A stretch of DNA of 64,000 nt. It comes from a virus. Shown one piece after another: positions 26,311 through 46,289 of this stretch. Position 1 is the first letter of the stretch, and every line of letters begins with the position of its first letter. The notes beneath the pieces are model-generated. The model did no database searches, was not told the DNA's origin, and saw nothing but the letters and a program-made list of their open reading frames with translations. The stretch lies in the IMG/VR virus record IMGVR_UViG_3300045988_112440; one strand, 5' to 3'. The position numbers and the translations under genes are program-made.

Positions 26311-27087
26311 ATGCCGAGAAGGAAAACAGTAGAAGCACTGCAATTAACGCCGAAAGAAATAGCTCGTAAGTCGCCTACTTTTATGGAGCTTCCTGAGATG
26401 GTAAGCCGTGCTGGTGAGCCTACATACTATTATGATGTGGGAGATGCTGTAGAGATTGGTCATCTTAGCGGATGCAAGATTGATGAAGTCTGCGACGGTG
26501 GTTTATATTACGGTGTTTCTTACGATGATGGATATAGGTACGAAACGTGGTTTAACATTCGTAAAGCAGGTATTGAGAAGAAATCTCAACTGACAGAGAA
26601 TGATGACATTAAGATTTCCTACTCAAATGTGACCATCGAATCCTTGCTCCACAGGTATTACTTCTTTGGCATCAACTGCAATCCGAGTTATCAACGTGGA
26701 TCTGTGTGGACAGATGATGACCGTAAACTGCTTCTTGAAACAATTTTTATGGGTGGTGAAATTGGTCGATTCGTTTTAAAAAATATTGATATGGACGAAT
26801 GGAATGAAAATCAGAATTACCTTTATGAAATCATTGATGGAAAGCAGAGGCTTCTGACGCTGACTGCATTCTACGAAGATCGTTTCCGTTACAAAGGATA
26901 TCTGTATAGTGAACTCTCTAAAAAGGACAAGAGAACATTTGATGAGGCCGTTGTTGCTATTGCAGATTTGCGGAATCTTTCTAAGAAAGATATGTTGCGT
27001 GTATTCTTGTTACTGAATCGTGGCGGCAAGGTTGTTACCAACGACGTACTTAATCATGCAAAAGAGTTACTAGATGAAATGGAGTGA
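26311..27087 (+). CDS. DUF262 / ParB-like nuclease-domain protein
   Basis: ORF track. PSYQRGSVWTDDDRKLLLETIF...IIDGKQRLLTL is the DUF262 signature. There is a ~110-aa N-terminal extension and no DUF1524/HNH half. Confidence 0.7.
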   Translation: MPRRKTVEALQLTPKEIARKSPTFMELPEMVSRAGEPTYYYDVGDAVEIGHLSGCKIDEVCDGGLYYGVSYDDGYRYETWFNIRKAGIEKKSQLTENDDIKISYSNVTIESLLHRYYFFGINCNPSYQRGSVWTDDDRKLLLETIFMGGEIGRFVLKNIDMDEWNENQNYLYEIIDGKQRLLTLTAFYEDRFRYKGYLYSELSKKDKRTFDEAVVAIADLRNLSKKDMLRVFLLLNRGGKVVTNDVLNHAKELLDEME

Positions 27088-27626: not shown

Positions 27627-28379
27627 ATGACAAGAAATGAATTGCTTGGAGCATTATGCTTTCCAGAATATAATTTTCTTCGGGAGAATGAGCATCTTGG
27701 CAAGCATATGATGTTCGTAACGGTCGGTGGCAGTCATGCTTATGGAACAAATGTTGAGGGTTCAGATCTCGACATCCGAGGGGTGGCATTAAATTCAAGA
27801 GAAGACCTTCTTGGTCTTGGTGAGTTTGAACATTATGTGGATACTCAAACTGATACTACAATCTACAGCTTTAATAAGGCTGTGAAGCTAATGTGCAGTG
27901 GAAATCCTAATATGCTGGAGCAGCTAGGGAACGCCGATGAACTCGTTATTAGCTATAATCCAATGACAAAGTTACTTATGGATAATAAAAAGCTGTTCCT
28001 GTCGAGGCGTGTAATCTATTCGTTTGGCGGTTTTGCAGGTAAGCTGATTCAGAAGGCTGATACGCTGGACAAAGATCCAATTTATCATGGCTCAAAGAAA
28101 ATGCACAAGACGGTAATGAATGTAGTTCGTGTATACCTGATGCTCTTTGACATCTTAGAAAAAGGTGAAATTAAAACCTATCGAGACAACGATCATAACT
28201 TCCTGACGCAGCTTCGCAACGGTGAATATGATTACAAAGAGATTCGTCAGCAACTGATTCCGGCCTATGAAAGCAGATTGTCAGTGGACAAGAGTGAGAC
28301 TTACCTGCCGGACAATGTTGATTGGAAGCGGGTCAACGAGCTTGTGATGACTGTAAATGAGGAGTCTTTAAAGATTTGA
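27627..28379 (+). CDS. predicted nucleotidyltransferase
   Basis: ORF track. GGSHAYGTNVEGSDLDIRGV is a GS..YG...SD.D nucleotidyltransferase motif. Confidence 0.65.
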   Translation: MTRNELLGALCFPEYNFLRENEHLGKHMMFVTVGGSHAYGTNVEGSDLDIRGVALNSREDLLGLGEFEHYVDTQTDTTIYSFNKAVKLMCSGNPNMLEQLGNADELVISYNPMTKLLMDNKKLFLSRRVIYSFGGFAGKLIQKADTLDKDPIYHGSKKMHKTVMNVVRVYLMLFDILEKGEIKTYRDNDHNFLTQLRNGEYDYKEIRQQLIPAYESRLSVDKSETYLPDNVDWKRVNELVMTVNEESLKI

Positions 28380-29314: not shown

Positions 29315-29680
29315 TTGAAAGTTGTTTGTGTGAGCGGAAGGCGGTTATTCTTGATGAGCGATAGAAAGGTTTTGAAAGTTATACGGGTTGATGATTTTTT
29401 AAAGTACATAAGAAAAAAGCGAGTGTGGGTCTGCTTTGTTTGTAATGGTGTGGATATTCACATGATCTGCAAAAAGATTGACGACATTGGCGTAGAGACG
29501 GGTGGGATTGTTAATGGCGTGGGGTTCTTCGGAAATGAGAGTCACATCGAGTTGCGACAAAAATGCCATGAAGTAAGGAGAATTGAACTTAGGTCTGGCT
29601 GTGCAGAGAAAGCGTATGAGATGATCTTCGATAATACTAGTGTGTTCGTATCAGAGAATCCTGAGTTGTACGGGCACTAA
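29315..29680 (+). CDS. hypothetical protein
   Basis: ORF track. No clear SD (TTG 29315 or ATG 29354), so the start is uncertain. Confidence 0.45.
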   Translation: MKVVCVSGRRLFLMSDRKVLKVIRVDDFLKYIRKKRVWVCFVCNGVDIHMICKKIDDIGVETGGIVNGVGFFGNESHIELRQKCHEVRRIELRSGCAEKAYEMIFDNTSVFVSENPELYGH

Positions 29681-29699: not shown

Positions 29700-29736
29700 T
29701 TGACTTCTGTGATTGTATCCTGTATAATGTAGCTAT
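29700..29736 (+). promoter_or_regulatory. consensus sigma-70 promoter carrying a forward-type motif copy
   Basis: TTGACT (29700-29705), 17 bp spacer, TATAAT (29723-29728). Motif GTATCCTGTATAATGTAGCTAT at 29715-29736. Confidence 0.7.
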
Positions 29737-29771
29737 GGAACGGAGCTACATCATTGTAGAGGAGAATGACT

Positions 29772-30191
29772 ATGGATAACAATATTGACCCAAAGGTCGG
29801 AGAGGTTTGGTTGGTTGATCTATCCAATGCGACAGGTCATCAGCAGCGCGGCATTCGACCGTTCGTTGTGACAAGTAACAACAAGCGTAACTTCTTCAGC
29901 CCAACAATCAAAGGGAATCCGTTATCTTCAAGAATATATAAGCGTTCTCCGGTTCATGTTCTACTCTCAAAGGAAGACTGCGAGTTCCTAGAGGTTGATA
30001 GTATCGTTCTCTGCGAAGAGACTGATACACTTAACAAAGGACAGTTCATCAAGAAACTTGGTGTCTTGTCGGAGCGTCAGATGAATATGATTGCAATGGC
30101 AAGATGCAAAGATGAACCATTTTTGCTCGCAGCATTTCTGAGCGGTGTACAACATACTATGGAATTTCAGAATTTTGCCGCATTTGCTTGA
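29772..30191 (+). CDS. MazF/PemK-family endoribonuclease toxin-like protein
   Basis: ORF 29766-30191, trimmed to ATG 29772 (6 nt after GGAGA). GEVWLVDLSNATGHQQRGIRPFVVTSNN...DSIVLCEETDTLNK aligns with the MazF fold pattern. Extra ~30-aa C-terminal tail. Confidence 0.7.
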   Translation: MDNNIDPKVGEVWLVDLSNATGHQQRGIRPFVVTSNNKRNFFSPTIKGNPLSSRIYKRSPVHVLLSKEDCEFLEVDSIVLCEETDTLNKGQFIKKLGVLSERQMNMIAMARCKDEPFLLAAFLSGVQHTMEFQNFAAFA

Positions 30192-30242
30192 TTTGTTCTC
30201 AGGTTTAATGGTACACTACATAATAAGAAGGAGTGTGCCACT

Positions 30243-31169
30243 ATGCTTACTGAAGAAAAAATCAAATCTTTTGCCGAAAAGTATTCTGATAGAAGCGGTG
30301 AGTTTGTTATATCGACGCTTAACCATGTTATGGATTACGAGGCCGAGCGTGGATATGAGTTGTTTGACTTCACAAAAGATGATTTTGTAAGGATGTTTGC
30401 TAAATACAATTGGGTGAACTCAAGTCGGTCGTTCAGAAATGTAAAGTCGATAATTACAGGGTACATCAAAAGTGATGATCGAGCGAGTATGTATGACTTA
30501 GCTGAATTCTCGGAGAGCGATGTGAGTTCAGACAATATGTACGAGGACAAGTATTTTGCATCAGTTGATGAGTTTGTTGATTTCTTGGACAAGTATGAAG
30601 AACCATATCAGATTCGTATGAACGTGATTGCCGTACTGTACTGGATTGGACTTACTTCTGAAGAGGTTTCTAATCTGACAATCAACAATGTTGATTTTGA
30701 ATCATGTACTGTTCTGAATAGGACCGGTGTTGACGCAAGACTGATGAATATCATTAAGCAGTGTTATGAAATGAAACAATACGATGCTCCAAATATGGGA
30801 GGATACAGAACGTTTTATGTCATAAATGGTGATTACATCCTTCGCAAAACAGAGGATAGAACTGGTGCAGACAGTGATTCAAGAATGTCTACAAACACAA
30901 TTCATAGTTATTTCACGCGCTTGAATGATATTCTCGAAAGAAGATATCATTCAAAGGCTTTAGACCGAAGACATCTGACTAGAAACGGCGAGTATGTCAA
31001 GGTTTATAACTACTGTAAAACTCATCCAGAATTTAATCTTGCAGAACTTAGTTTCGGAAATGGTAAAGATCCTCTTGCGGACATTATCGGAAGAAAGTGC
31101 AGCAAGGTTGCCTACATTAGTTTCCGGCAAGGATACAAGGGCTGGATCGAATACTTCCACAAAAATTAA
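30243..31169 (+). CDS. hypothetical protein, weak tyrosine-recombinase-like layout (degenerate)
   Basis: ORF track. SD GAAGGAG. WIGLTSEEVSNL sits where recombinases have TG.R.SE (Arg replaced by Thr). The functional call is weak. Confidence 0.35.
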   Translation: MLTEEKIKSFAEKYSDRSGEFVISTLNHVMDYEAERGYELFDFTKDDFVRMFAKYNWVNSSRSFRNVKSIITGYIKSDDRASMYDLAEFSESDVSSDNMYEDKYFASVDEFVDFLDKYEEPYQIRMNVIAVLYWIGLTSEEVSNLTINNVDFESCTVLNRTGVDARLMNIIKQCYEMKQYDAPNMGGYRTFYVINGDYILRKTEDRTGADSDSRMSTNTIHSYFTRLNDILERRYHSKALDRRHLTRNGEYVKVYNYCKTHPEFNLAELSFGNGKDPLADIIGRKCSKVAYISFRQGYKGWIEYFHKN

Positions 31170-31174
31170 AAACA

Positions 31175-31197
31175 GGGGGCTTCGGCCCCTTGATTTT
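31175..31197 (+). terminator. intrinsic terminator
   Basis: GGGGC-TTCG-GCCCC followed by TTGATTTT, 6 nt after the stop codon. Confidence 0.75.
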
Positions 31198-31205
31198 AAC
31201 ATTGT

Positions 31206-31225
31206 AACTATATAACACAGGATAC
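31206..31225 (+). promoter_or_regulatory. ACAGGATAC-core motif, reverse-type copy
   Basis: AACTATATAACACAGGATAC. Ends 21 nt before ATG 31247. Confidence 0.6.
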
Positions 31226-31246: not shown

Positions 31247-33460
31247 ATGAGAACGCTTTTGCTGTTCCGTGGAGCACCAGGTTGTGGGAAGTCCACCTAT
31301 ATTAAAGAGCATAATCTTGAACAGTACGTATTGAGTGCTGATACACTTCGCCTTATGTGCCAGAGCGCACAGGAAACACCTGCCGGGCAGATGGAGATTT
31401 CTCCGCAGAATGATGATGTTGTATGGGAGATGCTTTTCAAACTGCTTGAGGTGCGTATGAGTCATGGCGAGTTTACCGTGATTGATGCAACGAATTCCAA
31501 GACGGTCGAAATGAATCGTTATAAGAATCTGGCAAAACAGTATCGTTATCGGATGTATGTTATTGACATGACTGACCTTCCGATTGAGGAATGCAAACGA
31601 AGAAACGCTCAGAGAGAATGGCTGAAGCGAGTTCCTGAAGCGGCCATTGATAAGATGTACGCTCGGTTTGCTACTCAAAAAGTTCCTTCTGGCGTGACAG
31701 TTCTTCCTTCTACTACAGATGTGATGTCCGATTTGAATTACTGTCCGAATGACTTCAACCAGTGGAAGAAGATCCATGTCATCGGTGATGTTCATGGCTG
31801 TTATACTTGTTTAAGTGAATACCTTGGCGAGATGAAGGACGACGAACTTTATATTTTCGTTGGTGATTATCTCAATCGTGGCATCGAAAACGTTGAGGTA
31901 TTCAAGTTCTTGTGTGATGTTGTAAATAACAACCGCAAGAATGTGATCCTTTTGGAAGGGAATCACGAGCGTTGGCTGAACAAGTGGGGGCATGATGAAC
32001 CGGTTCAGAGTGAAGAGTTTGCAAACTACACTCGTCCGCAGCTTTTTAAAGCTGGTATTGATAAGAACACTGCTCGTAAGATCTATTCCAGAGTCGGCCA
32101 GTGTGCCTACTTTGAGTATGATGGTAAGCGGTATTTCGTGAGCCACGGTGGTTTGAGTTATCTGCCTTATTTTCTTCCTTTCGTATCTGCTGACCAGATG
32201 ATCAAAGGTGTAGGTCGCTATCCTGATATGCTAACCGTGGCTGAGTCTTGGGAAAAATCGATGCCTGATAGCTATATTCAGATATTCGGTCATCGAAATG
32301 TGCAGGATGTTCCTATTGATATGGGGCATCGGTGCTACAACCTCGAAGGAAAAATCGAGTTTGGTGGATATCTCCGTTGCGTGGAACTTGAACACGGTCA
32401 GCCCGTCAAGTGTGTAGAAACCAAGAATGATGTATTCCGAAAAGAGGAACCAAAGACCGAATCTGCCGTTGAAATGAAAACTGAGTTCGATAACGCAGAA
32501 CTTGTTAGTAAGATGCGTCAAAGCAAATATGTGTTTGAGAAGCGATTCGGAGATATTTCTTCTTTCAACTTCTCTCGTGAAGCATTTTATAAGAAGCATT
32601 GGGATGAGGTTTCTACCAAAGCAAGGGGATTGTTCATTAACACAAAGACGAATAAGATTGTAGCTCGAAGCTATGATAAGTTCTTTGCGGTTGATGAGCG
32701 GAATGAAACGAGAATTGGAAACCTACAGAACACTTTGAAGTTCCCGGTGACTGCGTATCTAAAAGAGAACGGATTTCTTGGTATCATTTCGTATGATGCA
32801 GAACAGGATGGCCTGTTCATTGCAAGTAAATCCACTCCTGAAGGGCCTTTTGCAGATATGTTCCGAAAGATTCTCATGGATACGACTTCTGATGAAGATC
32901 GTAAGAATCTGAAAGAAGTTGCAAAAGAGAATGGCTCCATCATCTTCGAGGTGATTGATCCTGTGAATGATGCTCATATCATTGAATACAAGAAACCACA
33001 CATTGTTTTGCTGGATATTATTGCGAATGATATGAACTTCAGTGTGATGGATTACGATGATCTGAAGCGTGTTGCTGAAAAGTGTCATTTGCAGATTAAG
33101 GAGAAGGTTAAGACTTTTGAGAACTGGAGTAAATTTTATCCTTGGTACGAGGAAGTCATGAACGAGAACTATCTGCATCATGGCTTTGAACACGTTGAAG
33201 GCTTTGTTTTGCGAGACAGCAACAATTTTATGTTTAAGATGAAGCTTCCTTATTATAAGCACTGGAAGTTCTTGCGTGGTGTCATGCAGAGTGTCCAGAA
33301 GCGTGGTTATTACGAAAACACTGCCAAGCTATTTACTGCTGAGGATAACCTGTTCTATGGTTGGATGCGTGAGCAACGAGAGAAAGACCAGGAGTCTTTT
33401 TGCAAGAAGGGTATTATTCAGCTGCGGAATGAGTTCTACGCAAGTCAGCAGAAGAGCTGA
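31247..33460 (+). CDS. trifunctional polynucleotide kinase / metallophosphatase / ligase (Pnkp-like RNA repair enzyme)
   Basis: ORF track. P-loop GAPGCGKST. Phosphoesterase motifs GDVHGC, GDYLNRG and GNHE. Ligase-type motifs KENG, EGFVLRD and FKMKL. Confidence 0.8.
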   Translation: MRTLLLFRGAPGCGKSTYIKEHNLEQYVLSADTLRLMCQSAQETPAGQMEISPQNDDVVWEMLFKLLEVRMSHGEFTVIDATNSKTVEMNRYKNLAKQYRYRMYVIDMTDLPIEECKRRNAQREWLKRVPEAAIDKMYARFATQKVPSGVTVLPSTTDVMSDLNYCPNDFNQWKKIHVIGDVHGCYTCLSEYLGEMKDDELYIFVGDYLNRGIENVEVFKFLCDVVNNNRKNVILLEGNHERWLNKWGHDEPVQSEEFANYTRPQLFKAGIDKNTARKIYSRVGQCAYFEYDGKRYFVSHGGLSYLPYFLPFVSADQMIKGVGRYPDMLTVAESWEKSMPDSYIQIFGHRNVQDVPIDMGHRCYNLEGKIEFGGYLRCVELEHGQPVKCVETKNDVFRKEEPKTESAVEMKTEFDNAELVSKMRQSKYVFEKRFGDISSFNFSREAFYKKHWDEVSTKARGLFINTKTNKIVARSYDKFFAVDERNETRIGNLQNTLKFPVTAYLKENGFLGIISYDAEQDGLFIASKSTPEGPFADMFRKILMDTTSDEDRKNLKEVAKENGSIIFEVIDPVNDAHIIEYKKPHIVLLDIIANDMNFSVMDYDDLKRVAEKCHLQIKEKVKTFENWSKFYPWYEEVMNENYLHHGFEHVEGFVLRDSNNFMFKMKLPYYKHWKFLRGVMQSVQKRGYYENTAKLFTAEDNLFYGWMREQREKDQESFCKKGIIQLRNEFYASQQKS

Positions 33461-33467
33461 ATTAAAA

Positions 33468-33497
33468 TAGACATTTTATCGTGATTTTCGTTAGAAT
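33468..33497 (+). promoter_or_regulatory. candidate promoter of the tRNA array
   Basis: TAGACA (33468-33473), 18 bp spacer, TAGAAT (33492-33497). TATCGTGAT direct repeat nearby. Confidence 0.4.
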
Positions 33498-33575
33498 AAT
33501 TAACGAAGTATCGTGATGTTTCTTCCTCCAAAAATGCTCTGCGCGGGGCTGACAGCCGGGAAAGACCGGCAATAT

Positions 33576-33660
33576 GGGGATATGGTGAAATTGGCAGCCA
33601 CGCTTGATTCAAACTCAAGTGTCGAAAGACGTATCGGTTCAAATCCGATTATCCCTACCA
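33576..33660 (+). tRNA. tRNA-Leu(CAA): tRNA-Leu (anticodon CAA), type II, CCA encoded
   Basis: Hand-folded. Acceptor GGGGATA/TATCCCT. Anticodon stem CTTGA/TCAAG with loop TTCAAAC. Long variable arm. T arm ATCGG-TTCAAAT-CCGAT. Confidence 0.85.
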
Positions 33661-33857
33661 TGAAGATCAGTTGTTCTGGCTAGATCGGGGATTGGCCGTT
33701 CATTGGCAAACGACAGGTATCATACCGGTAAAGGATGCCGAGCCAAATAGGAAGGGGAATAAGGTGCAAGCCGAGTAGCTGTCGGACGAATACCCTTCAG
33801 GTAGCCAGTAAACCGGAATGTAAAACAAATGTTGGCTGTTTCTGATCTTCTATATAA
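33661..33857 (+). ncRNA. 197-nt structured spacer (unclassified candidate ncRNA)
   Basis: Nested helices: 33662-33670/33842-33850 (9 bp), 33676-33682/33802-33808 (7 bp), and two internal arms. Confidence 0.35.
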
Positions 33858-33940
33858 GCTACCGTGGTGGAATGGCAGACACCGGAGACTTAAAATCTCC
33901 TGTCGGAAACGACGTGCCCGTTCAAGTCGGGTCGGTAGCA
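33858..33940 (+). tRNA. tRNA-Leu(UAA): tRNA-Leu (anticodon UAA), type II
   Basis: Acceptor GCTACCG/CGGTAGC. Anticodon stem GGAGA/TCTCC with loop CTTAAAA. Long variable arm. No CCA encoded. Confidence 0.85.
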
Positions 33941-33947
33941 TTGATAT

Positions 33948-34023
33948 CCGGGTGTAGCTCAGTTGGAAGAGCGCGTGCTTTGGGAGCATGAGGCCGCAGG
34001 ATCGTGACCTGTCACTCGGACCA
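33948..34023 (+). tRNA. tRNA-Pro(UGG): tRNA-Pro (anticodon UGG)
   Basis: Acceptor CCGGGTG/CACTCGG (C1-G72). D arm GCTC..GAGC. Anticodon loop TTTGGGA. CCA encoded. Confidence 0.85.
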
Positions 34024-34056
34024 ACCCGAAAGGGCATGTAGAATTTTTCATTCACA

Positions 34057-34110
34057 TTATTCCCAGCTCTCTGGAAACGGAGCAGTGTGACGTAGTAAGC
34101 TGGGCATATG
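34057..34110 (+). ncRNA. covarying spacer element, copy a
   Basis: ATTATT CCCAGCT [CTCTG-GAAA-CGGAG] CAGTGTGACGTAGTA AGCTGGG. Confidence 0.5.
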
Positions 34111-34112
34111 CT

Positions 34113-34183
34113 GCGCCATCGCCAAGCGGTAAGGCAGAGGACTTTGACTCCTCCATCACAGGTTCGACCCCTGTTGGCGCAAT
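34113..34183 (+). tRNA. tRNA-Gln(UUG): tRNA-Gln (anticodon UUG)
   Basis: Acceptor TGCGCCA/TGGCGCA (U1-A72). Anticodon stem GAGGA/TCCTC with loop CTTTGAC. T arm ACAGG-TTCGACC-CCTGT. Confidence 0.8.
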
Positions 34184-34187
34184 TTAT

Positions 34188-34269
34188 GCGGATATGGTGG
34201 AATGGCAGACACGCCAGACTTAGGATCTGGTGCTTCGGCGTGTGGGTTCGATGCCCACTATCCGCACCA
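34188..34269 (+). tRNA. tRNA-Leu(UAG): tRNA-Leu (anticodon UAG), type II, CCA encoded
   Basis: Acceptor GCGGATA/TATCCGC. Anticodon stem CCAGA/TCTGG with loop CTTAGGA. Variable arm TGCTTCGGCGT. Confidence 0.85.
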
Positions 34270-34319
34270 CGATCATAGAATGGTTGCGTACCGTTTGTTG
34301 ATCTCCTTTGACTGCCACT

Positions 34320-34375
34320 ATTATTCCCAGCTCACCAGTGATGGTGCAGTAGTGCTTTGTAAGCTGGGTGATTAT
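34320..34375 (+). ncRNA. covarying spacer element, copy b
   Basis: ATTATT CCCAGCT [CACCA-GTGA-TGGTG] CAGTAGTGCTTTGTA AGCTGGG. Confidence 0.5.
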
Positions 34376-34450
34376 GCAGCGGTCGTACAATGGTTAGTAT
34401 ATCAGCCTTCCAAGCTGAGGATGAGGTTTCGACTACCTTTCGCTGCTCCA
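34376..34450 (+). tRNA. tRNA-Gly(UCC): tRNA-Gly (anticodon UCC)
   Basis: Acceptor GCAGCGG/TCGCTGC. Anticodon stem TCAGC/GCTGA with loop CTTCCAA. Discriminator U. CCA encoded. Confidence 0.85.
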
Positions 34451-34545
34451 ATCTCGTATGGGTAGGATTTTTAGCGGTCAAATCCGGCTGCGCCTGTGCG
34501 AGATACCACCCCGAAAGGGGAGAGATATAGGAAATGTGCATCACT

Positions 34546-34600
34546 GTTATTCCTTCCTCGTCTATATGATATAGATGCAATAGTGTTTATAAGGAAGGTT
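34546..34600 (+). ncRNA. covarying spacer element, copy c
   Basis: GTTATT CCTTCCT cg[TCTATA-TGA-TATAGA] TGCAATAGTGTTTATA AGGAAGG. A further hairpin TCCCAGT/ACTGGGA follows at 34600-34633. Confidence 0.45.
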
Positions 34601-34637
34601 CCCAGTTGAATAGTTGCAGCTGTTTGACTGGGAATAT

Positions 34638-34714
34638 GGGATAGTAGCTCAGTTGGTCAGAGCTGGCGGCTCATAACCGCTTGGTCGCGAGTTCAAATCT
34701 TGCCTGTCCCACCA
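34638..34714 (+). tRNA. tRNA-Met(CAU): tRNA with CAU anticodon (elongator Met or Ile2), CCA encoded
   Basis: Acceptor GGGATAG/CTGTCCC (G1-C72, so not initiator-like). Anticodon loop CTCATAA. T arm GCGAG-TTCAAAT-CTTGC. Confidence 0.8.
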
Positions 34715-34808
34715 GCCCAATAGGGTATACATAAAATTTTTGTTTTATAAGCGATGAAATAATATGACGTTGATACGTCTATTATTTTTTCGCTCATTTT
34801 CGGAGATT

Positions 34809-34829
34809 TAGCTATGTAACACAGGATAC
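34809..34829 (+). promoter_or_regulatory. ACAGGATAC-core motif, reverse-type copy
   Basis: TAGCTATGTAACACAGGATAC. Ends 17 nt before GTG 34847. Confidence 0.6.
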
Positions 34830-34846: not shown

Positions 34847-36386
34847 GTGAAACATTATGGAAGTATTTGCGAGATTGATGGTTCTAAGATTGAGCCTGTC
34901 TCGTGTATCACTGGTGGTTCACCTTGTTAGCCAAGACCTTTCTATTGCCGGTAAGCGGGCAGGTTTGGCTGGAGAACGGTCTGGTCTATTTATGGAAATG
35001 ATTCGTGTGATAAAGGAAATGAGGGATGCCACCAATGGAGAATGTCCAAAATTTGCAATCTGGGAAAATGTTAGAGGAGCACTTTCCTCAAACAACGGAG
35101 AAGACTTCCGATGCGTCTTGGAAGAATTTGCACACATCGTCGAAGCAGACGCTACAATTCCTAAACCTTCGGGAAAAGGCGGAAAATGGTCTAAATCCGG
35201 CGCAATTTCCGGTAATGGATGGTCTTTGGCATGGAGACTCTTTGATGCTCAATATTGGGGAGTGCCCCAACGTCGTCAAAGAATCGCGCTTGTCATGGAT
35301 TTTAGAGGACAACGTGCCGCAGAAATACTATTTGAGCGCACGGGCGTGCCAGGGAATCCTGACGAGAGCATCCCGACGTGGCAAAGCTTTGCCAGAATTA
35401 CTGAAGAATGCACTGCTAAAGATGATCGAGTGGTGGGAGAAAAAAGCTTTTGTATTGTCGGAAACATGATTGACAGAGAAACCAATATGAACGGGACTGG
35501 TGTAAAAGAAGATACTGCTTTTACTATAAACACTATTGACCGTAATGCTGTTGCCTATACTTTAAAGATTCGTTCAGGATGCGAAGGTGGTGGCAAAGGC
35601 GCACTGGTACAGACCGAGAAGAGTGCAACGCTTTCTACATTGCAAGATCAAACGCTAATCTGCTTGGCAGACAACACCTCTTTACATAATTTAAAACAAA
35701 AGATTTGTGTCTTGAATGATCAGGGCGGTAGTGTAATGAATGTTTCTTACGATATTGTAGGAACAATAAGAGCACAAGAGCATGGTCATCAACCAATTGT
35801 ATTTGAGAGCCATAGTCAAGATGCTCGATACACCCAGCAAGGTAATACAAGTCCGGCTTGTACGGCTCAATGGGGAACTGGTGGCAATAATATGCCGCTT
35901 GTTGCCGAAAAGAAAGCCTTTGCAATGCAACGCATTGGTGAATACAAGGAAAGTGAACAAGCTAGTACGATGAAATCTCGTGACTACAAGGATGCTACTG
36001 ACTTGATTGCAGAGAAGGAAACGAAGAATCTGCAATGGATTGTTCGTCGCCTGACTCCTGTTGAGTGTGAACGGTTACAGGGTTTTCCTGATGGATGGAC
36101 CGATATTGGCGAGTGGTTTGATGAGAATGGTAAAAAGCACAAACCTGCCGATTCTCCTCGTTACAAAGCACTCGGTAATTCAATCGCTTTGCCTCAGTGG
36201 TATTGGATTTTCCAGAAAATGAAACCGTATATCGGTGAAAATCCCACGCTTGGCAGTCTTTTCGATGGAATTGGTGGCTTTCCGCTTGTCTTTGAAAGTA
36301 TGTATGGTGATGGTGCTGCTATCTGGGGATCAGAGATTGAACCGTTCTGCGTTGCAGTAACGAAGAAGCATTTCCCAGAAGACTAA
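34847..36386 (+). pseudogene. C5 cytosine DNA methyltransferase, circularly permuted motif order, frame broken at the PCQ motif
   Basis: GTG 34847 (7 nt after AGGAGG) encodes MKHYGSICEIDGSKIEPVSCITGGSPC, then TAG at 34928. The +1 frame (track ORF 34857-36386) continues QDLSIAGKRAG, ENV, QRRQR, GNSI and ends with LFDGIGGF...SEIEP. Confidence 0.7.
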
Positions 36387-45527: not shown

Positions 45528-46289
45528 ATGGTTTACATTACAGGCGATATTCATGGTGATTTTAATCGTTTTTTAGAATTGGAAAAGTTTTGCCATGAAC
45601 ACAATCTTGGAAAGAATGACTGGATTGTCTGCCTTGGCGATGTCGGTTTGAACTATTACGGCAAGGACGACCCTCGCGAATGGAGTATTAAGACTATCGC
45701 CGCAGATATTCCTGCAAATCTGTTTTGTATTTATGGCAACCACGAACGCCGCCCTTCTCGTAAGGATGGTTATAGGACAAAGGAAATCAGTGGAGATATT
45801 TGCGGCAAAGTGTGGCATGACCCACATTATCCCAATCAGTATTTCGCTATCGATGGCGAAGTTTACCAGATTCTTGCTGATAGGAAAATTCTGAACTGTC
45901 TTGTTTGTGGCGGAGCTTATTCCGTAGATAAATGTTATCGGTTGGAGCGTGGATGGAACTGGTGGCCGGATGAACAGCCTAATGAGAAGACTAAGAAAAA
46001 GATCTGGAATATTACACATGACCCTCAAATCGATGGTATTGATGTTATGCTCACGCATACTTGTCCATTCCGGTTCATTCCAACTGAATTGTTTATCGGT
46101 GGTATTGATCAAAGCACAGTAGACCAGTCAACTGAAATATTCTTTGATAATATATACGAATGTTATCCTAACGATTGTAAACCATTCTGGTACTTCGGCC
46201 ATTTCCATGGTAACAAGTACACCGATGACTATGTGATGCTTTTCGACGATATTATTAAGTTTGGAGATAAGGTGAAGAGTGATGGTTAA
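45528..46289 (+). CDS. calcineurin-like metallophosphoesterase
   Basis: ORF track. GDIHGD, GDVGLNYYG and GNHE motifs. Confidence 0.75.
   Translation: MVYITGDIHGDFNRFLELEKFCHEHNLGKNDWIVCLGDVGLNYYGKDDPREWSIKTIAADIPANLFCIYGNHERRPSRKDGYRTKEISGDICGKVWHDPHYPNQYFAIDGEVYQILADRKILNCLVCGGAYSVDKCYRLERGWNWWPDEQPNEKTKKKIWNITHDPQIDGIDVMLTHTCPFRFIPTELFIGGIDQSTVDQSTEIFFDNIYECYPNDCKPFWYFGHFHGNKYTDDYVMLFDDIIKFGDKVKSDG

What the first reader, a model, noticed from the sequence alone, without database searches (positions are those of the whole stretch)
31247..34714. Fused kinase-phosphatase-ligase RNA repair enzyme directly upstream of the tRNA array (candidate anti-anticodon-nuclease module)
The 737-aa protein combines three domains:
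- A P-loop polynucleotide kinase (GAPGCGKST).
- A binuclear metallophosphoesterase (GDVHGC, GDYLNRG, GNHE).
- A nucleotidyltransferase ligase domain (KENG, EGFVLRD, FKMKL).
This is the domain order of bacterial Pnkp, which normally partners with Hen1. No Hen1-like methyltransferase gene is adjacent. Functionally the protein resembles T4 Pnk plus Rnl1, which heals tRNA cut by PrrC.
Here the gene has its own ACAGGATAC motif copy. It is followed, after a candidate promoter, by seven tRNAs and structured spacers.
Repairing cleaved tRNA while also supplying replacement tRNA would be a two-pronged counter-defence against host tRNA-targeting nucleases. The link between the two parts is an inference from synteny.
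Basis: partly seen in the sequence, partly recalled or inferred. Interest (0 to 1): 0.65.

Follow-up and report, generated by a model that had tools for sequence, protein, structure and literature searches.

The report
Phage RNA repair enzyme beside tRNAs
A large gut phage encodes one protein predicted to mend cut RNA (kinase, phosphoesterase and a yeast-tRNA-ligase-like sealing domain) directly upstream of seven tRNA genes, but the enzyme family is widespread and already annotated, and pairing RNA repair with phage tRNAs is an established idea.

Summary
ORF 31247-33460 encodes a 737-aa protein with an intact P-loop kinase, a binuclear metallophosphoesterase and an ATP-dependent RNA ligase, followed 115 nt later by seven tRNA genes. 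The interpretation needs correcting. The kinase and phosphoesterase resemble bacterial Pnkp, but the ligase domain is not Pnkp-type. It is closest to the fungal Trl1 ligase domain (Rnl6 clade), so Hen1 is irrelevant. The fusion is a large family (about 4,000 proteins; PHROG 8238), present in many Firmicute phages and apparently also in bacterial chromosomes, with no fixed partner gene. Linkage to tRNAs is invariant only among close relatives (88-99% identity) and absent in most distant ones. It recurs next to the ligase in several separate lineages, including a Fusobacterium phage. Ligase and array look like one transcription unit behind a repeated promoter/operator element. The tRNA genes are hypervariable between strains and host homing-endonuclease insertions. 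The counter-defence role is plausible but inferred. New member of a known kind.

The parts
27627..28379 (+). RlaP-family (RNA-ligase-associated Pol-beta) nucleotidyltransferase, an accessory RNA-repair gene
   Evidence: Pfam PF10127, E 3.8e-19. Present in 28 of 78 close relatives at about -3.4 kb, and within 10 kb of the ligase in 4 of 88 diverse loci. RlaP adds 1-2 nt to RNA 3' ends (PMC12776372).
29700..29728 (+). Consensus sigma-70-like promoter (TTGACT-17-TATAAT) for the PemK/MrpR-like unit, with an inverted copy of the repeated element core in its spacer
   Evidence: Promoter scan 11/12; motif copy on the minus strand at 29715-29723.
29766..30191 (+). PemK/MazF-type endoribonuclease toxin homologue (context; separate transcription unit)
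   Evidence: Pfam PemK_toxin 1.7e-19. Matches S. aureus MazF and B. subtilis EndoA at 1e-14 to 1e-11 with the catalytic Arg kept. Present in 78 of 78 close relatives and upstream of the ligase in the 53% and 62% relatives.
30243..31169 (+). MrpR-like protein with an N-terminal core-binding domain; candidate repressor (context)
   Evidence: Pfam MrpR_N_CB, E 5e-4, below cutoff. The homologue in L085 carries an unmarked precomputed MrpR_N_CB hit. Present in 78 of 78 close relatives. Analogy to SPbeta MrpR/SPBRE.
31174..31190 (+). Intrinsic-terminator-like hairpin (GGGGGCTTCGGCCCC followed by a T-run) ending the upstream unit
   Evidence: Terminator scan; conserved in relatives.
31205..31225 (+). 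21-nt repeated promoter/operator element TAACTATATAACACAGGATAC (a -10-like box plus ACAGGATAC) in front of the ligase gene
   Evidence: 9 copies against 0.34 expected; extended consensus; present upstream of the ligase in 62 of 74 relatives.
31247..31711 (+). Domain 1 (aa 1-155): P-loop 5'-OH polynucleotide kinase, CthPnk-like
   Evidence: AAA_33 2e-23; invariant G9, G14, K15 and D32; Foldseek 4gp7 TM 0.76, rmsd 2.9.
31754..32446 (+). Domain 2 (aa 170-400): binuclear metallophosphoesterase (2',3'-cyclic phosphodiesterase/phosphatase type), lambda-Pase/CthPnkp-like; carries the strain-specific N210
   Evidence: Metallophos 5e-15; invariant D181, H183, D207, R211, N239, H240, H300 and H349; Foldseek 1g5b TM 0.73 and 4j6o TM 0.65; N210 against D in 75 of 75 relatives.
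32486..33460 (+). Domain 3 (aa 414-737): ATP-dependent RNA ligase, Trl1-LIG (Rnl6)-like including the C-terminal helical module; preceded by a disordered linker at aa 401-413
   Evidence: RNA_lig_T4_1 8e-41; invariant K506, N508, G509, E568, E651, G652, K664 and K666; phmmer hits only Trl1 (2e-18) and T4 Rnl1; Foldseek Trl1-LIG TM 0.65-0.69 against T4 Rnl1 0.55; linker from the AF2 model.
33468..33517 (+). Optional 52-nt module with a sigma-70-like site (TAGACA-18-TAGAAT) that also forms a long AU-rich hairpin; absent in part of the clade
   Evidence: Promoter scan; hairpin; presence or absence among relatives.
33518..33575 (+). Conserved leader immediately before the first tRNA (TTTCTTCCTCC...GCGCGGGGCTGACAGCCGGGAAAGACCGGC)
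   Evidence: Conserved in all downstream variants even where the first tRNA allele differs.
33576..33660 (+). tRNA-Leu (CAA)
   Evidence: ARAGORN; Rfam 53 bits.
33858..33940 (+). tRNA-Leu (TAA)
33948..34023 (+). tRNA-Pro (TGG)
34112..34182 (+). tRNA-Gln (TTG)
34188..34269 (+). tRNA-Leu (TAG)
34376..34450 (+). tRNA-Gly (TCC)
34638..34714 (+). tRNA with CAT anticodon (Met, or possibly ATA-reading Ile2; replaced by Ile-TAT in 4 relatives)
34766..34779 (+). Terminator-like hairpin with a T-run inside a larger stable stem, closing the ligase-tRNA unit
   Evidence: Terminator scan; trailer fold z -4.5.
34809..34829 (+). Next copy of the 21-nt promoter/operator element, starting the following unit (DNA methylase gene)

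Best explanation
The gene encodes a self-sufficient, single-chain RNA 'heal-and-seal' enzyme. After a metal-independent ribonuclease cuts an RNA, most plausibly a tRNA anticodon loop, the ends are 2',3'-cyclic phosphate and 5'-OH. The N-terminal P-loop kinase (aa 1-155) phosphorylates the 5'-OH. The central binuclear metallophosphoesterase (aa 170-400) opens and probably removes the cyclic phosphate to expose a 3'-OH. The C-terminal ligase (aa 414-737), joined by a flexible linker, self-adenylylates on K506, activates the 5'-phosphate and seals the break. The healing half is of the bacterial Pnkp type and the sealing half is of the fungal Trl1 (Rnl6) type, so no Hen1 activator is expected. In this SPbeta-like gut phage the gene sits behind its own copy of a repeated promoter/operator element and is probably co-transcribed with seven tRNA genes. 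An RlaP 3'-end-rebuilding nucleotidyltransferase lies 2.9 kb upstream in some strains. The most likely role is to keep translation running during lytic growth when tRNAs are attacked, by repairing broken tRNAs and supplying spare ones. Shown here: domain identities, intact catalytic residues, fold, operon-like layout and distribution. Inferred: all enzymatic activities, the substrate, co-transcription, and the counter-defence role.
For: Three domains by Pfam, with a full-length match to PHROG 8238 'RNA ligase' at 3e-226. All catalytic residues of the three active sites are invariant in alignments of 14 and 40 diverse members. The AF2 model has pLDDT 90.2 with a single disordered linker at 401-413. 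Foldseek matches are CthPnk (TM 0.76), lambda-Pase/CthPnkp phosphatase (0.73/0.65) and Trl1-LIG (0.65-0.69), which is better than T4 Rnl1 (0.55). CthPnkp-type phosphoesterases hydrolyse 2',3'-cyclic phosphates. No partner gene is conserved across 89 loci, consistent with a stand-alone enzyme. The layout is terminator, 21-nt promoter element, ligase, tRNAs, terminator, next element. In part of the clade the internal promoter-like module is missing and the first tRNA starts about 70 nt after the stop codon. All 73 close relatives keep the ligase-to-array order. Same-strand tRNAs lie within 1 kb of the ligase in separate distant lineages: L088, L213, L229/L232, L237 and Fusobacterium phage FNU2. 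RlaP is nearby in the window and in four distant lineages. Codons cognate to the phage tRNAs are minor codons in the phage's own genes, which argues against simple codon compensation. The T4 Pnkp/Rnl1-PrrC precedent and the published view of phage tRNAs plus RNA repair as counter-defence support the role.
Against: No activity, substrate or phenotype has been measured for any member, as far as the searchable literature shows. Most distant family members have no tRNA nearby, and many sit among ordinary chromosomal genes in Lachnospiraceae, so the family is not inherently an anti-defence device. The host and its tRNA nucleases are unknown. Synteny in the close clade may simply reflect recent common ancestry. 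In the window an AU-rich hairpin followed by GUUUCUU and a promoter-like site lie between ligase and array, so the array could be transcribed separately. The window's allele has N210 where all 75 relatives have D. The equivalent CthPnkp D236N mutant keeps cyclic phosphodiesterase activity, but its effect on the monoesterase step was not found in the text read.
Confidence: 0.55

Rival explanations
1. The enzyme is a general RNA-maintenance enzyme and its adjacency to the tRNAs is incidental. It repairs any broken RNA, as its chromosomal homologues presumably do. The tRNA array lies next to it because both are accessory cargo in the same early, recombination-prone region. The tRNAs serve translation supply, not nuclease evasion.
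For: Many homologues lie among housekeeping-type genes with no tRNAs and no conserved partner. Six of nine cultured phage lineages sampled have no tRNA within 6-8 kb of the gene: SPbetaL2, KKP_3916, A9, Iacchus, S-CoN_Ph1 and phiIPLA-C1C. The array is a hotspot for HNH, GIY-YIG and TnpB insertions and for allele replacement, typical of a plastic cargo region. All anticodons read A/G-ending codons, as expected for a 41% GC phage.
Against: Close adjacency recurs in several separate lineages, with different tRNA sets and on either side of the gene. It is seen in 7 of the 12 lineages that have any same-strand tRNA within 8 kb. The cognate codons are not the phage's preferred codons. The operon-like boundaries enclose just the ligase and the array.
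Confidence: 0.25
2. The ligase is the repair partner of the phage's own MazF-type toxin. [quoted passage not shown] The ligase, switched on from a repressor-controlled promoter, reverses or limits that damage when the lytic programme starts.
For: MazF family enzymes leave the end chemistry this enzyme heals (family knowledge). PemK, the MrpR-like gene and the ligase keep the same order in all 78 close relatives and in the 53% relative. In the 62% relative other genes and tRNAs lie between them. PemK is also near the ligase in L229 and L237. The toxin retains its catalytic Arg. SPbeta-like phages are known to wire host MazF into the lysis-lysogeny decision.
Against: PemK was detected near the ligase in only 7 of 88 diverse loci. 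A strong terminator and a separate promoter divide the PemK/MrpR unit from the ligase unit. The phage genes do not avoid the Bacillus/Staphylococcus MazF site UACAU: 38 observed against 26 expected. The PemK-MrpR pairing is explained well enough as a lysogeny module on its own.
Confidence: 0.1
3. The enzyme matures the phage's own tRNAs, for example by joining halves or removing insertions from array transcripts, in a protein-based tRNA splicing pathway like that of its Trl1 relatives.
For: The ligase domain is Trl1-like. It lies directly upstream of the tRNAs. Some relatives have unusually long Gln and Met tRNAs of 87-92 nt.
Against: All seven window tRNAs are complete and intron-free. The long alleles fold with long variable arms, not anticodon-loop introns. 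Most family members have no tRNAs nearby. No splicing endonuclease was found among the ORFs scanned.
Confidence: 0.03
4. One reading: a bacterial Pnkp-type enzyme whose ligase would normally depend on Hen1.
For: It has the same kinase-phosphoesterase-ligase order, and the kinase and phosphoesterase domains match CthPnkp by sequence and fold.
Against: TIGR04075 scores 76 bits against a 750 cutoff and covers only model positions 10-323 of 851. The C-terminal 324 aa hit only Trl1 and T4 Rnl1 in the PDB even at E<=10, with no Pnkp ligase. No Pnkp ligase appears in the top 50 fold matches. No Hen1 was found.
Confidence: 0.02

Closest known systems
PHROG 8238 / 'RNA ligase' of Staphylococcus phage Twort (ORF008), Brochothrix phage A9 gp147, SPbeta-like Bacillus phages and Fusobacterium phage FNU2
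   Same: Same family and same three-domain architecture over the full length: PHROG profile 1-735, E 3e-226, and 36-44% identity over 99% of the length. In FNU2 a tRNA array also follows the gene.
   Different: These members are annotated but, as far as I could find, not characterised biochemically. Most have no adjacent tRNA array. The window protein is only 36-44% identical to any cultured-phage member.
Clostridium thermocellum Pnkp (bacterial Pnkp/Hen1 RNA repair system)
   Same: Same N-terminal P-loop kinase and central binuclear metallophosphoesterase, in the same order, with matching catalytic residues and folds.
   Different: The ligase domain is of a different clade (Trl1/Rnl6-like, not the Pnkp/Rnl4 type), and there is no Hen1 partner. 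The protein fails the NCBIfam equivalog by a wide margin.
Fungal and plant tRNA ligase Trl1 (Rnl6 clade ligase domain)
   Same: Both are trifunctional heal-and-seal enzymes on one chain. The ligase domain aligns end to end, including the clade-defining C-terminal module and the ...LRNEF motif. Trl1-LIG gives the best sequence and fold matches in the PDB. Counterparts of three of the four putative 2'-PO4 ligands are invariant: N508, H577 and K674.
   Different: The domain order is reversed (KIN-PASE-LIG against LIG-KIN-CPD). End healing uses a metallophosphoesterase instead of a 2H cyclic phosphodiesterase. The RxxR motif reads KxxK here. Whether a 2'-PO4 is required is unknown.
Phage T4 Pnkp plus Rnl1 (repair of PrrC-cleaved tRNA-Lys)
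   Same: It encodes the same three chemical steps and the same presumed biological logic, and the ligase nucleotidyltransferase core is homologous.
   Different: T4 uses two separate proteins, and its phosphatase is a DxDxT acylphosphatase (abstract of PMC3592404). The Rnl1-specific C-terminal domain is not matched.
RlaP-associated RNA repair gene neighbourhoods (Burroughs and Aravind 2016; Carruthers et al. 2025 preprint)
   Same: An RlaP gene lies 2.9 kb upstream in the window and near the ligase in four distant lineages. RlaP adds 1-2 nt to RNA 3' ends before ligation.
   Different: RlaP is optional here (28 of 78 close strains) and is not in the same transcription unit.

Membership tests
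Bacterial Pnkp (NCBIfam TIGR04075; Pnkp/Hen1 system) | N-terminal P-loop 5'-OH polynucleotide kinase | tested here: met
   AAA_33 2e-23; CthPnk 4gp7 at E 6e-6 by sequence and TM 0.76 by fold; P-loop and D32 invariant.
Bacterial Pnkp (NCBIfam TIGR04075; Pnkp/Hen1 system) | Central binuclear metallophosphoesterase with the lambda-Pase-type motifs | tested here: met
   Metallophos 5e-15; GDxHG, GDxxDRG, GNHE, H300 and GH349 conserved; 4j6o TM 0.65.
Bacterial Pnkp (NCBIfam TIGR04075; Pnkp/Hen1 system) | C-terminal Pnkp-type (Rnl4 clade) adenylyltransferase domain, and a whole-protein score above the curated cutoff | tested here: not met
   76 bits against a cutoff of 750, with only model positions 10-323 of 851 matched. 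No Pnkp ligase chain was hit by the C-terminal 324 aa at E<=10 or in the top 50 fold matches.
Bacterial Pnkp (NCBIfam TIGR04075; Pnkp/Hen1 system) | Adjacent Hen1 methyltransferase partner | tested here: not met
   No Hen1-like domain in the scanned window ORFs and no conserved neighbour in 89 loci.
Trl1-type RNA ligase domain (Rnl6 clade) | Nucleotidyltransferase motifs I, III, IV and V with the lysine nucleophile | tested here: met
   K506-E-N-G, E568, E651-G-F-V and K664-x-K666 are invariant.
Trl1-type RNA ligase domain (Rnl6 clade) | Clade-specific C-terminal helical domain appended to the adenylyltransferase | tested here: met
   The phmmer alignment to Trl1-LIG runs to query residue 731 and includes LRNEF. 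Foldseek covers about 360 columns of 372-395-residue targets, with TM 0.65-0.69 and rmsd about 4. The definition is from PMC6379707.
Trl1-type RNA ligase domain (Rnl6 clade) | Putative 2'-PO4 pocket (CthTrl1 Asn150, His227, Arg334, Arg337) | tested here: inconclusive
   The counterparts are N508, H577, K671 and K674. N508, H577 and K674 are invariant, position 671 is K/R/N, and both Arg are replaced by Lys in the window.
Trl1-type RNA ligase domain (Rnl6 clade) | Biochemical requirement for a 3'-OH,2'-PO4 end | not testable with these tools
   This needs ligation assays with 2'-PO4 and 2'-OH substrates.
Full-length fungal/plant Trl1 | LIG-KIN-CPD order with a 2H-type cyclic phosphodiesterase | tested here: not met
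   The order here is kinase, metallophosphoesterase, ligase, with no 2H domain.
T4 Rnl1 (Rnl1 clade) | Rnl1-specific C-terminal tRNA-specificity domain | tested here: not met
   Alignments to T4 Rnl1 stop at query residue 670, which is residues 247-267 of 374. The fold match is weaker: TM 0.55, rmsd 8-10.
T4 Pnkp | DxDxT acylphosphatase-type 3'-phosphatase domain fused to the kinase | tested here: not met
   The phosphatase here is a calcineurin-like metallophosphoesterase.
PHROG 8238 (phage 'RNA ligase', 737-position profile) | Full-length profile match | tested here: met
   E 2.9e-226, residues 1-735 on profile positions 1-734 of 737.
Phage anti-anticodon-nuclease repair (T4 Pnkp/Rnl1 against PrrC paradigm) | Kinase, 3'-end healing and sealing activities all encoded | tested here: met
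   By sequence and fold only.
Phage anti-anticodon-nuclease repair (T4 Pnkp/Rnl1 against PrrC paradigm) | A host tRNA nuclease whose damage is reversed, with a phage phenotype | not testable with these tools
   The host is unknown and there are no experimental data.

The most novel reading that the evidence does not exclude
This large bacterial and phage family may be a prokaryotic Trl1-type (Rnl6) ligase that, like the fungal and plant enzymes, seals 3'-OH,2'-PO4 ends. The invariant N508, H577 and K674 would form the 2'-phosphate pocket, and a CthPnkp-type phosphoesterase can open the cyclic phosphate to a 2'-phosphate. If so, bacteria and their phages would generate 2'-phosphate RNA junctions. 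That would give the widespread 'orphan' bacterial Tpt1/KptA 2'-phosphotransferases a natural substrate. My recollection that these enzymes lack a known substrate is from my own knowledge and was not checked here.
Probability: 0.15. Interest if true: 0.7.

Novelty: new member of a known kind. Interest (0 to 1): 0.4.

Why it matters
The family has about 4,000 members and is found in gut Firmicutes and in well-known Staphylococcus, Bacillus, Lactobacillus and Fusobacterium phages. It is annotated inconsistently as 'RNA ligase', 'polynucleotide kinase', 'protein phosphatase' or 'AAA ATPase', and it appears never to have been assayed. This analysis shows it is a stand-alone enzyme that combines a Pnkp-type healing half with a Trl1-type sealing half. 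That gives it a precise and testable description. It also identifies a natural system for testing the tRNA counter-defence hypothesis in gut phages: ligase, hypervariable tRNA array, optional RlaP and a neighbouring MazF-type toxin. The concept itself is not new.

Tried and rejected
(1) Bacterial Pnkp/Hen1 membership is rejected.
(2) Family-wide conservation of the ligase-tRNA synteny is rejected. It is lineage-restricted but recurrent.
(3) PemK as a family-wide partner is rejected: 7 of 88 loci.
(4) No partner gene is conserved in 89 loci.
(5) Introns in the phage tRNAs are rejected. The long alleles in relatives have long variable arms.
(6) Avoidance of the MazF site UACAU in phage genes was not seen; the site is slightly enriched.
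(7) Classic codon compensation is not supported by the phage's own codon usage, but host usage is unknown.
(8) Rfam found nothing in the spacers apart from the tRNAs.
(9) No Tpt1/KptA, RtcB or Hen1 was found in the ORFs of 120 aa or more in the window. About half of the phage genome lies outside the window.
(10) Recent sharing of tRNA alleles with distant lineages is not seen: 59-89% identity.
(11) Host identification failed. There is no near DNA match in cultured phages and no organism names in the protein clusters.
(12) The Burroughs and Aravind 2016 survey, which probably catalogues this architecture, could not be read.

Full report
OBSERVATION. Pfam assigns a P-loop kinase (AAA_33, aa 4-142, 2e-23), a calcineurin-like metallophosphoesterase (aa 175-353, 5e-15) and an Rnl1-family RNA ligase (RNA_lig_T4_1, aa 458-670, 8e-41). 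Seven tRNA genes follow at 33576-34714 on the same strand: Leu-CAA, Leu-TAA, Pro-TGG, Gln-TTG, Leu-TAG, Gly-TCC and Met-CAT. ARAGORN and Rfam both find them. ACAGGATAC occurs nine times in the window against 0.34 expected, and one copy lies at 31217-31225. A sigma-70-like site lies at 33468-33497. Only 'structured spacers' is overstated: spacer 4 and the trailer fold far better than shuffles (z -5.5 and -4.5), spacer 3 and the leader are marginal, and spacers 1 and 2 are not distinguishable from shuffles.

WHAT THE PROTEIN IS. The NCBIfam equivalog for bacterial Pnkp scores 76 bits against a cutoff of 750 and matches only the kinase-phosphatase part. Searched alone against the PDB at E<=10, the C-terminal 324 residues hit only fungal Trl1 ligase domains (best 2e-18, aligned to within six residues of the C-terminus) and T4 Rnl1 (about 1e-6, nucleotidyltransferase core only). 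No Pnkp ligase domain is hit. An AlphaFold model (pLDDT 90.2) shows two halves joined by a disordered linker at residues 401-413. Foldseek matches the kinase to C. thermocellum Pnk (TM 0.76) and the phosphoesterase to lambda phosphatase and CthPnkp (0.73 and 0.65). It matches the ligase to Trl1-LIG (0.65-0.69, rmsd about 4 A), which is better than T4 Rnl1 (0.55, rmsd 8-10 A). Trl1-LIG founded the 'Rnl6' clade, defined by its C-terminal domain, and the phage protein shares that module. The enzyme is therefore a chimera: a Pnkp-type healing half and a Trl1-type sealing half.

CATALYTIC COMPETENCE. The following residues are invariant in alignments of 14 members (37-62% identity) and 40 members: the P-loop and D32; D181, H183, D207, R211, N239, H240, H300 and H349; and K506, N508, G509, E568, E651, G652, K664 and K666. 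At sequence level the ligase is not dead. R211 and H240 correspond to CthPnkp Arg237 and His264, which the Mn-dependent monoesterase needs, so both the diesterase and monoesterase steps are probably retained. The window allele is unusual at one position. It has N210 in motif II (GDYLNRG), whereas all 75 close relatives have Asp. The exact sequence is on record from five contigs. The equivalent CthPnkp D236N mutant keeps full cyclic-phosphodiesterase efficiency.

DISTRIBUTION. The full-length architecture matches PHROG 8238 (E 3e-226). It is found in 113 cultured phage genomes at 36-44% identity, including SPbeta-like Bacillus phages, Twort-like and other Staphylococcus phages, Brochothrix A9, and Lactobacillus and Fusobacterium phages. 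Annotations vary between 'RNA ligase', 'tRNA ligase', 'polynucleotide kinase' and 'protein phosphatase'. The large protein database holds 3,982 homologues at E<=1e-10. Eighty loci from bacterial genome assemblies (45-51% identity, mostly Lachnospiraceae) often have ordinary chromosomal neighbours, and no neighbour is conserved in more than 16 of 89 loci. I found no paper that characterises the fusion. The 2016 comparative survey most likely to list it could not be read.

SYNTENY WITH tRNAs. All 73 IMG/VR relatives with downstream sequence (88-99% protein identity, phages of about 130 kb) have the array starting 70-120 nt after the stop codon, in the same anticodon order. That similarity is too close to prove selection. 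At greater distance the linkage mostly disappears. There are no tRNAs within 6-8 kb in SPbetaL2, KKP_3916, A9, Iacchus, S-CoN_Ph1, phiIPLA-C1C, the 53%-identity phage L085-87, or most of the 80 genome loci. It does recur, however. A same-strand tRNA lies within 1 kb of the ligase in L088, L213, L229/L232 (Leu-TAG, Pro-TGG, Gln-TTG and Leu-CAA upstream), L237 and Fusobacterium phage FNU2 (five tRNAs 0.9 kb downstream). Including the window clade, that is 7 of the 12 lineages that have any same-strand tRNA within 8 kb. These tRNAs are not recent copies of the window alleles. The association is therefore lineage-restricted but repeatedly found, which is suggestive and not yet a formal statistic.

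TRANSCRIPTION UNIT. A GC-rich terminator (31174-31190) ends the upstream unit. It is followed by a 21-nt element, TA(A/G)CTATAnAAyACAGGATAC, which contains a TATAAT-like box (31205-31225). Nine copies occur in the window, all in intergenic positions, and 62 of 74 relatives keep the element before the ligase. After the array come a terminator (34766-34779) and the next copy of the element (34809-34829). In part of the clade the 52-nt module that carries the internal sigma-70-like site is missing, so the first tRNA starts about 70 nt after the ligase stop codon. This argues for co-transcription. In the window itself that module could act as an attenuator or a second promoter.

The upstream unit has its own consensus promoter (29700-29728) and encodes a MazF/EndoA-type toxin and an MrpR-like protein. 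In SPbeta, MrpR represses lytic promoters through a repeated 15-bp element, and host MazF is part of the lysis-lysogeny switch. By analogy, the 21-nt element may be the operator of the MrpR-like protein and the ligase-tRNA unit a lytic-phase operon. This is inference.

OTHER REPAIR CONTEXT. Window 27627-28379 encodes an RlaP nucleotidyltransferase (E 4e-19). This family adds one or two nucleotides to RNA 3' ends and has been proposed to mend tRNAs from which a nuclease has removed a base. RlaP is present in 28 of 78 close strains and near the ligase in four distant lineages.

THE ARRAY. Between strains whose ligase genes are 93.5% identical at DNA level, six of the seven tRNAs average only 76-83% identity (Met-CAT 90%). 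Each has 15-21 alleles, of differing lengths, while the anticodons, most anticodon-loop positions and the gene order are retained. Relatives carry HNH, GIY-YIG and TnpB-type genes inside the array. This offers a homing and gene-conversion explanation for the mosaicism. The codons cognate to these tRNAs are minor codons in the phage's own genes, which does not fit simple codon compensation. By wobble the set could cover all Leu, Pro, Gly and Gln codons, which is an inference from standard decoding rules.

MECHANISM AND ROLE. The best reading is a stand-alone heal-and-seal RNA repair enzyme, expressed together with spare tRNAs to protect translation during lytic growth. This parallels T4 Pnkp/Rnl1 against PrrC and the published view that phage tRNAs and RNA-repair genes counter host attacks on tRNA. 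My confidence that it is an active trifunctional repair enzyme is about 0.85. My confidence that its role here is counter-defence coupled to the array is about 0.5. The rivals are general RNA maintenance with incidental adjacency (0.25), repair of damage from the phage's own MazF-type toxin (0.1), maturation of phage tRNAs (0.03), and a Hen1-dependent Pnkp (0.02).

NOVELTY. The gene is a new, divergent member of an annotated but apparently uncharacterised family, and the biological idea is already in the literature. The most novel reading still open is that this prokaryotic Trl1-type ligase keeps a 2'-phosphate pocket (N508, H577, K674) and produces 2'-phosphate junctions. No Tpt1 was found in the window, and the conserved monoesterase residues argue mildly against this reading.

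Noticed in passing
window 27627-28379 (+): An RlaP-family (PF10127) RNA-repair nucleotidyltransferase lies 2.9 kb upstream of the ligase. It is present in only 28 of 78 close strains, so it is an accessory cassette.
   Followed up: partly
window 29700-31169 (+): A MazF/PemK-type toxin (29766-30191) and an MrpR-like protein (30243-31169) lie behind a consensus sigma-70 promoter whose spacer holds an inverted copy of the repeated element. This is possibly an autoregulated lysogeny-control unit, as in SPbeta. The upstream orf121 (29315-29680) is conserved in 78 of 78 relatives, has no Pfam match, and could be an antitoxin.
   Followed up: partly
window 773, 7640, 7712, 29715, 31217, 34821, 38416, 52393, 52462 (motif starts): ACAGGATAC is the core of a 21-nt element, TA(A/G)CTATAnAAyACAGGATAC, with a TATAAT-like box. 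There are nine copies, all intergenic. It is a candidate phage promoter/operator class analogous to the SPBRE of SPbeta.
   Followed up: partly
window 33576-34714 and loci L005-L084: The tRNA genes are hypervariable between strains: 15-21 alleles each, and 76-83% mean pairwise identity for six of the seven (Met-CAT 90%), against 93.5% for the adjacent ligase DNA. Anticodons and gene order are constant, and stems mostly change on both strands.
   Followed up: yes
L006 8761-9357, L048 9218-9646, L050 9799-10830, L049 9773-10495 (also L029, L031, L053, L068): Mobile nuclease genes (HNH, GIY-YIG and a TnpB/Cas12f-like ORF) are inserted between tRNA genes of the array in relatives. They are absent from the window.
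   Followed up: yes
L053 9635-9724, L031 10374-10465, L020 9006-9079, L229 and L232: Relatives carry atypical tRNAs. tRNA-Gln(UUG) and tRNA-Met(CAU) alleles of 87-92 nt have long variable arms (the Gln type is also seen in the distant L229 and L232). A 74-nt 'His(ATG)' call has an 8-bp acceptor stem and G at position 33.
   Followed up: partly
window 31874-31876 (codon 210 of the ligase ORF): The motif II residue is Asn in the window (GDYLNRG) but Asp in all 75 close relatives and 13 of 13 distant members. The exact protein is on record from five contigs.
   Followed up: yes
window 34451-34508 (+): The start of spacer 4 folds as a long stem with an internal hairpin and ends in ACCA. It looks like a tRNA acceptor/T-arm minihelix or a truncated tRNA. 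Some relatives have a second tRNA-Gly in this interval.
   Followed up: no
window 34058-34108, 34322-34372, 34597-34635 (+): Three similar hairpins (TTCCCAGCT...AGCTGGGA) end a few bases before tRNA-Gln, tRNA-Gly and tRNA-Met. They may be processing signals.
   Followed up: partly
window 33518-33575 (+): The leader before the first tRNA is conserved across all strain variants, even where the first tRNA allele is replaced. Its function is unknown.
   Followed up: partly
window 34857-36386 (+): This C5 cytosine DNA methylase ORF has its FDGIGG (motif I-like) sequence near the C-terminus, and Pfam matches it in two stretches. It may be a permuted or fused methyltransferase.
   Followed up: no
window 26311-27087 (+) and 45528-46289 (+): A protein with a GmrSD N-terminal domain lies next to RlaP, in a strain-variable region. 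A second, stand-alone metallophosphoesterase lies in the replication module.
   Followed up: no
L167-L246 (genome contigs): Many Lachnospiraceae copies of the fusion sit among housekeeping-type genes, which suggests chromosomal rather than prophage copies. A minus-strand tRNA-Pro(CGG) recurs at variable distance downstream in Acetatifactor-type loci.
   Followed up: partly
window 34638-34714 and L024, L028, L060, L077: The last tRNA (CAT) is replaced in four relatives by an Ile(TAT) tRNA with similar acceptor, D and T arms. The CAT tRNA may therefore be an ATA-reading tRNA-Ile2 rather than tRNA-Met.
   Followed up: partly
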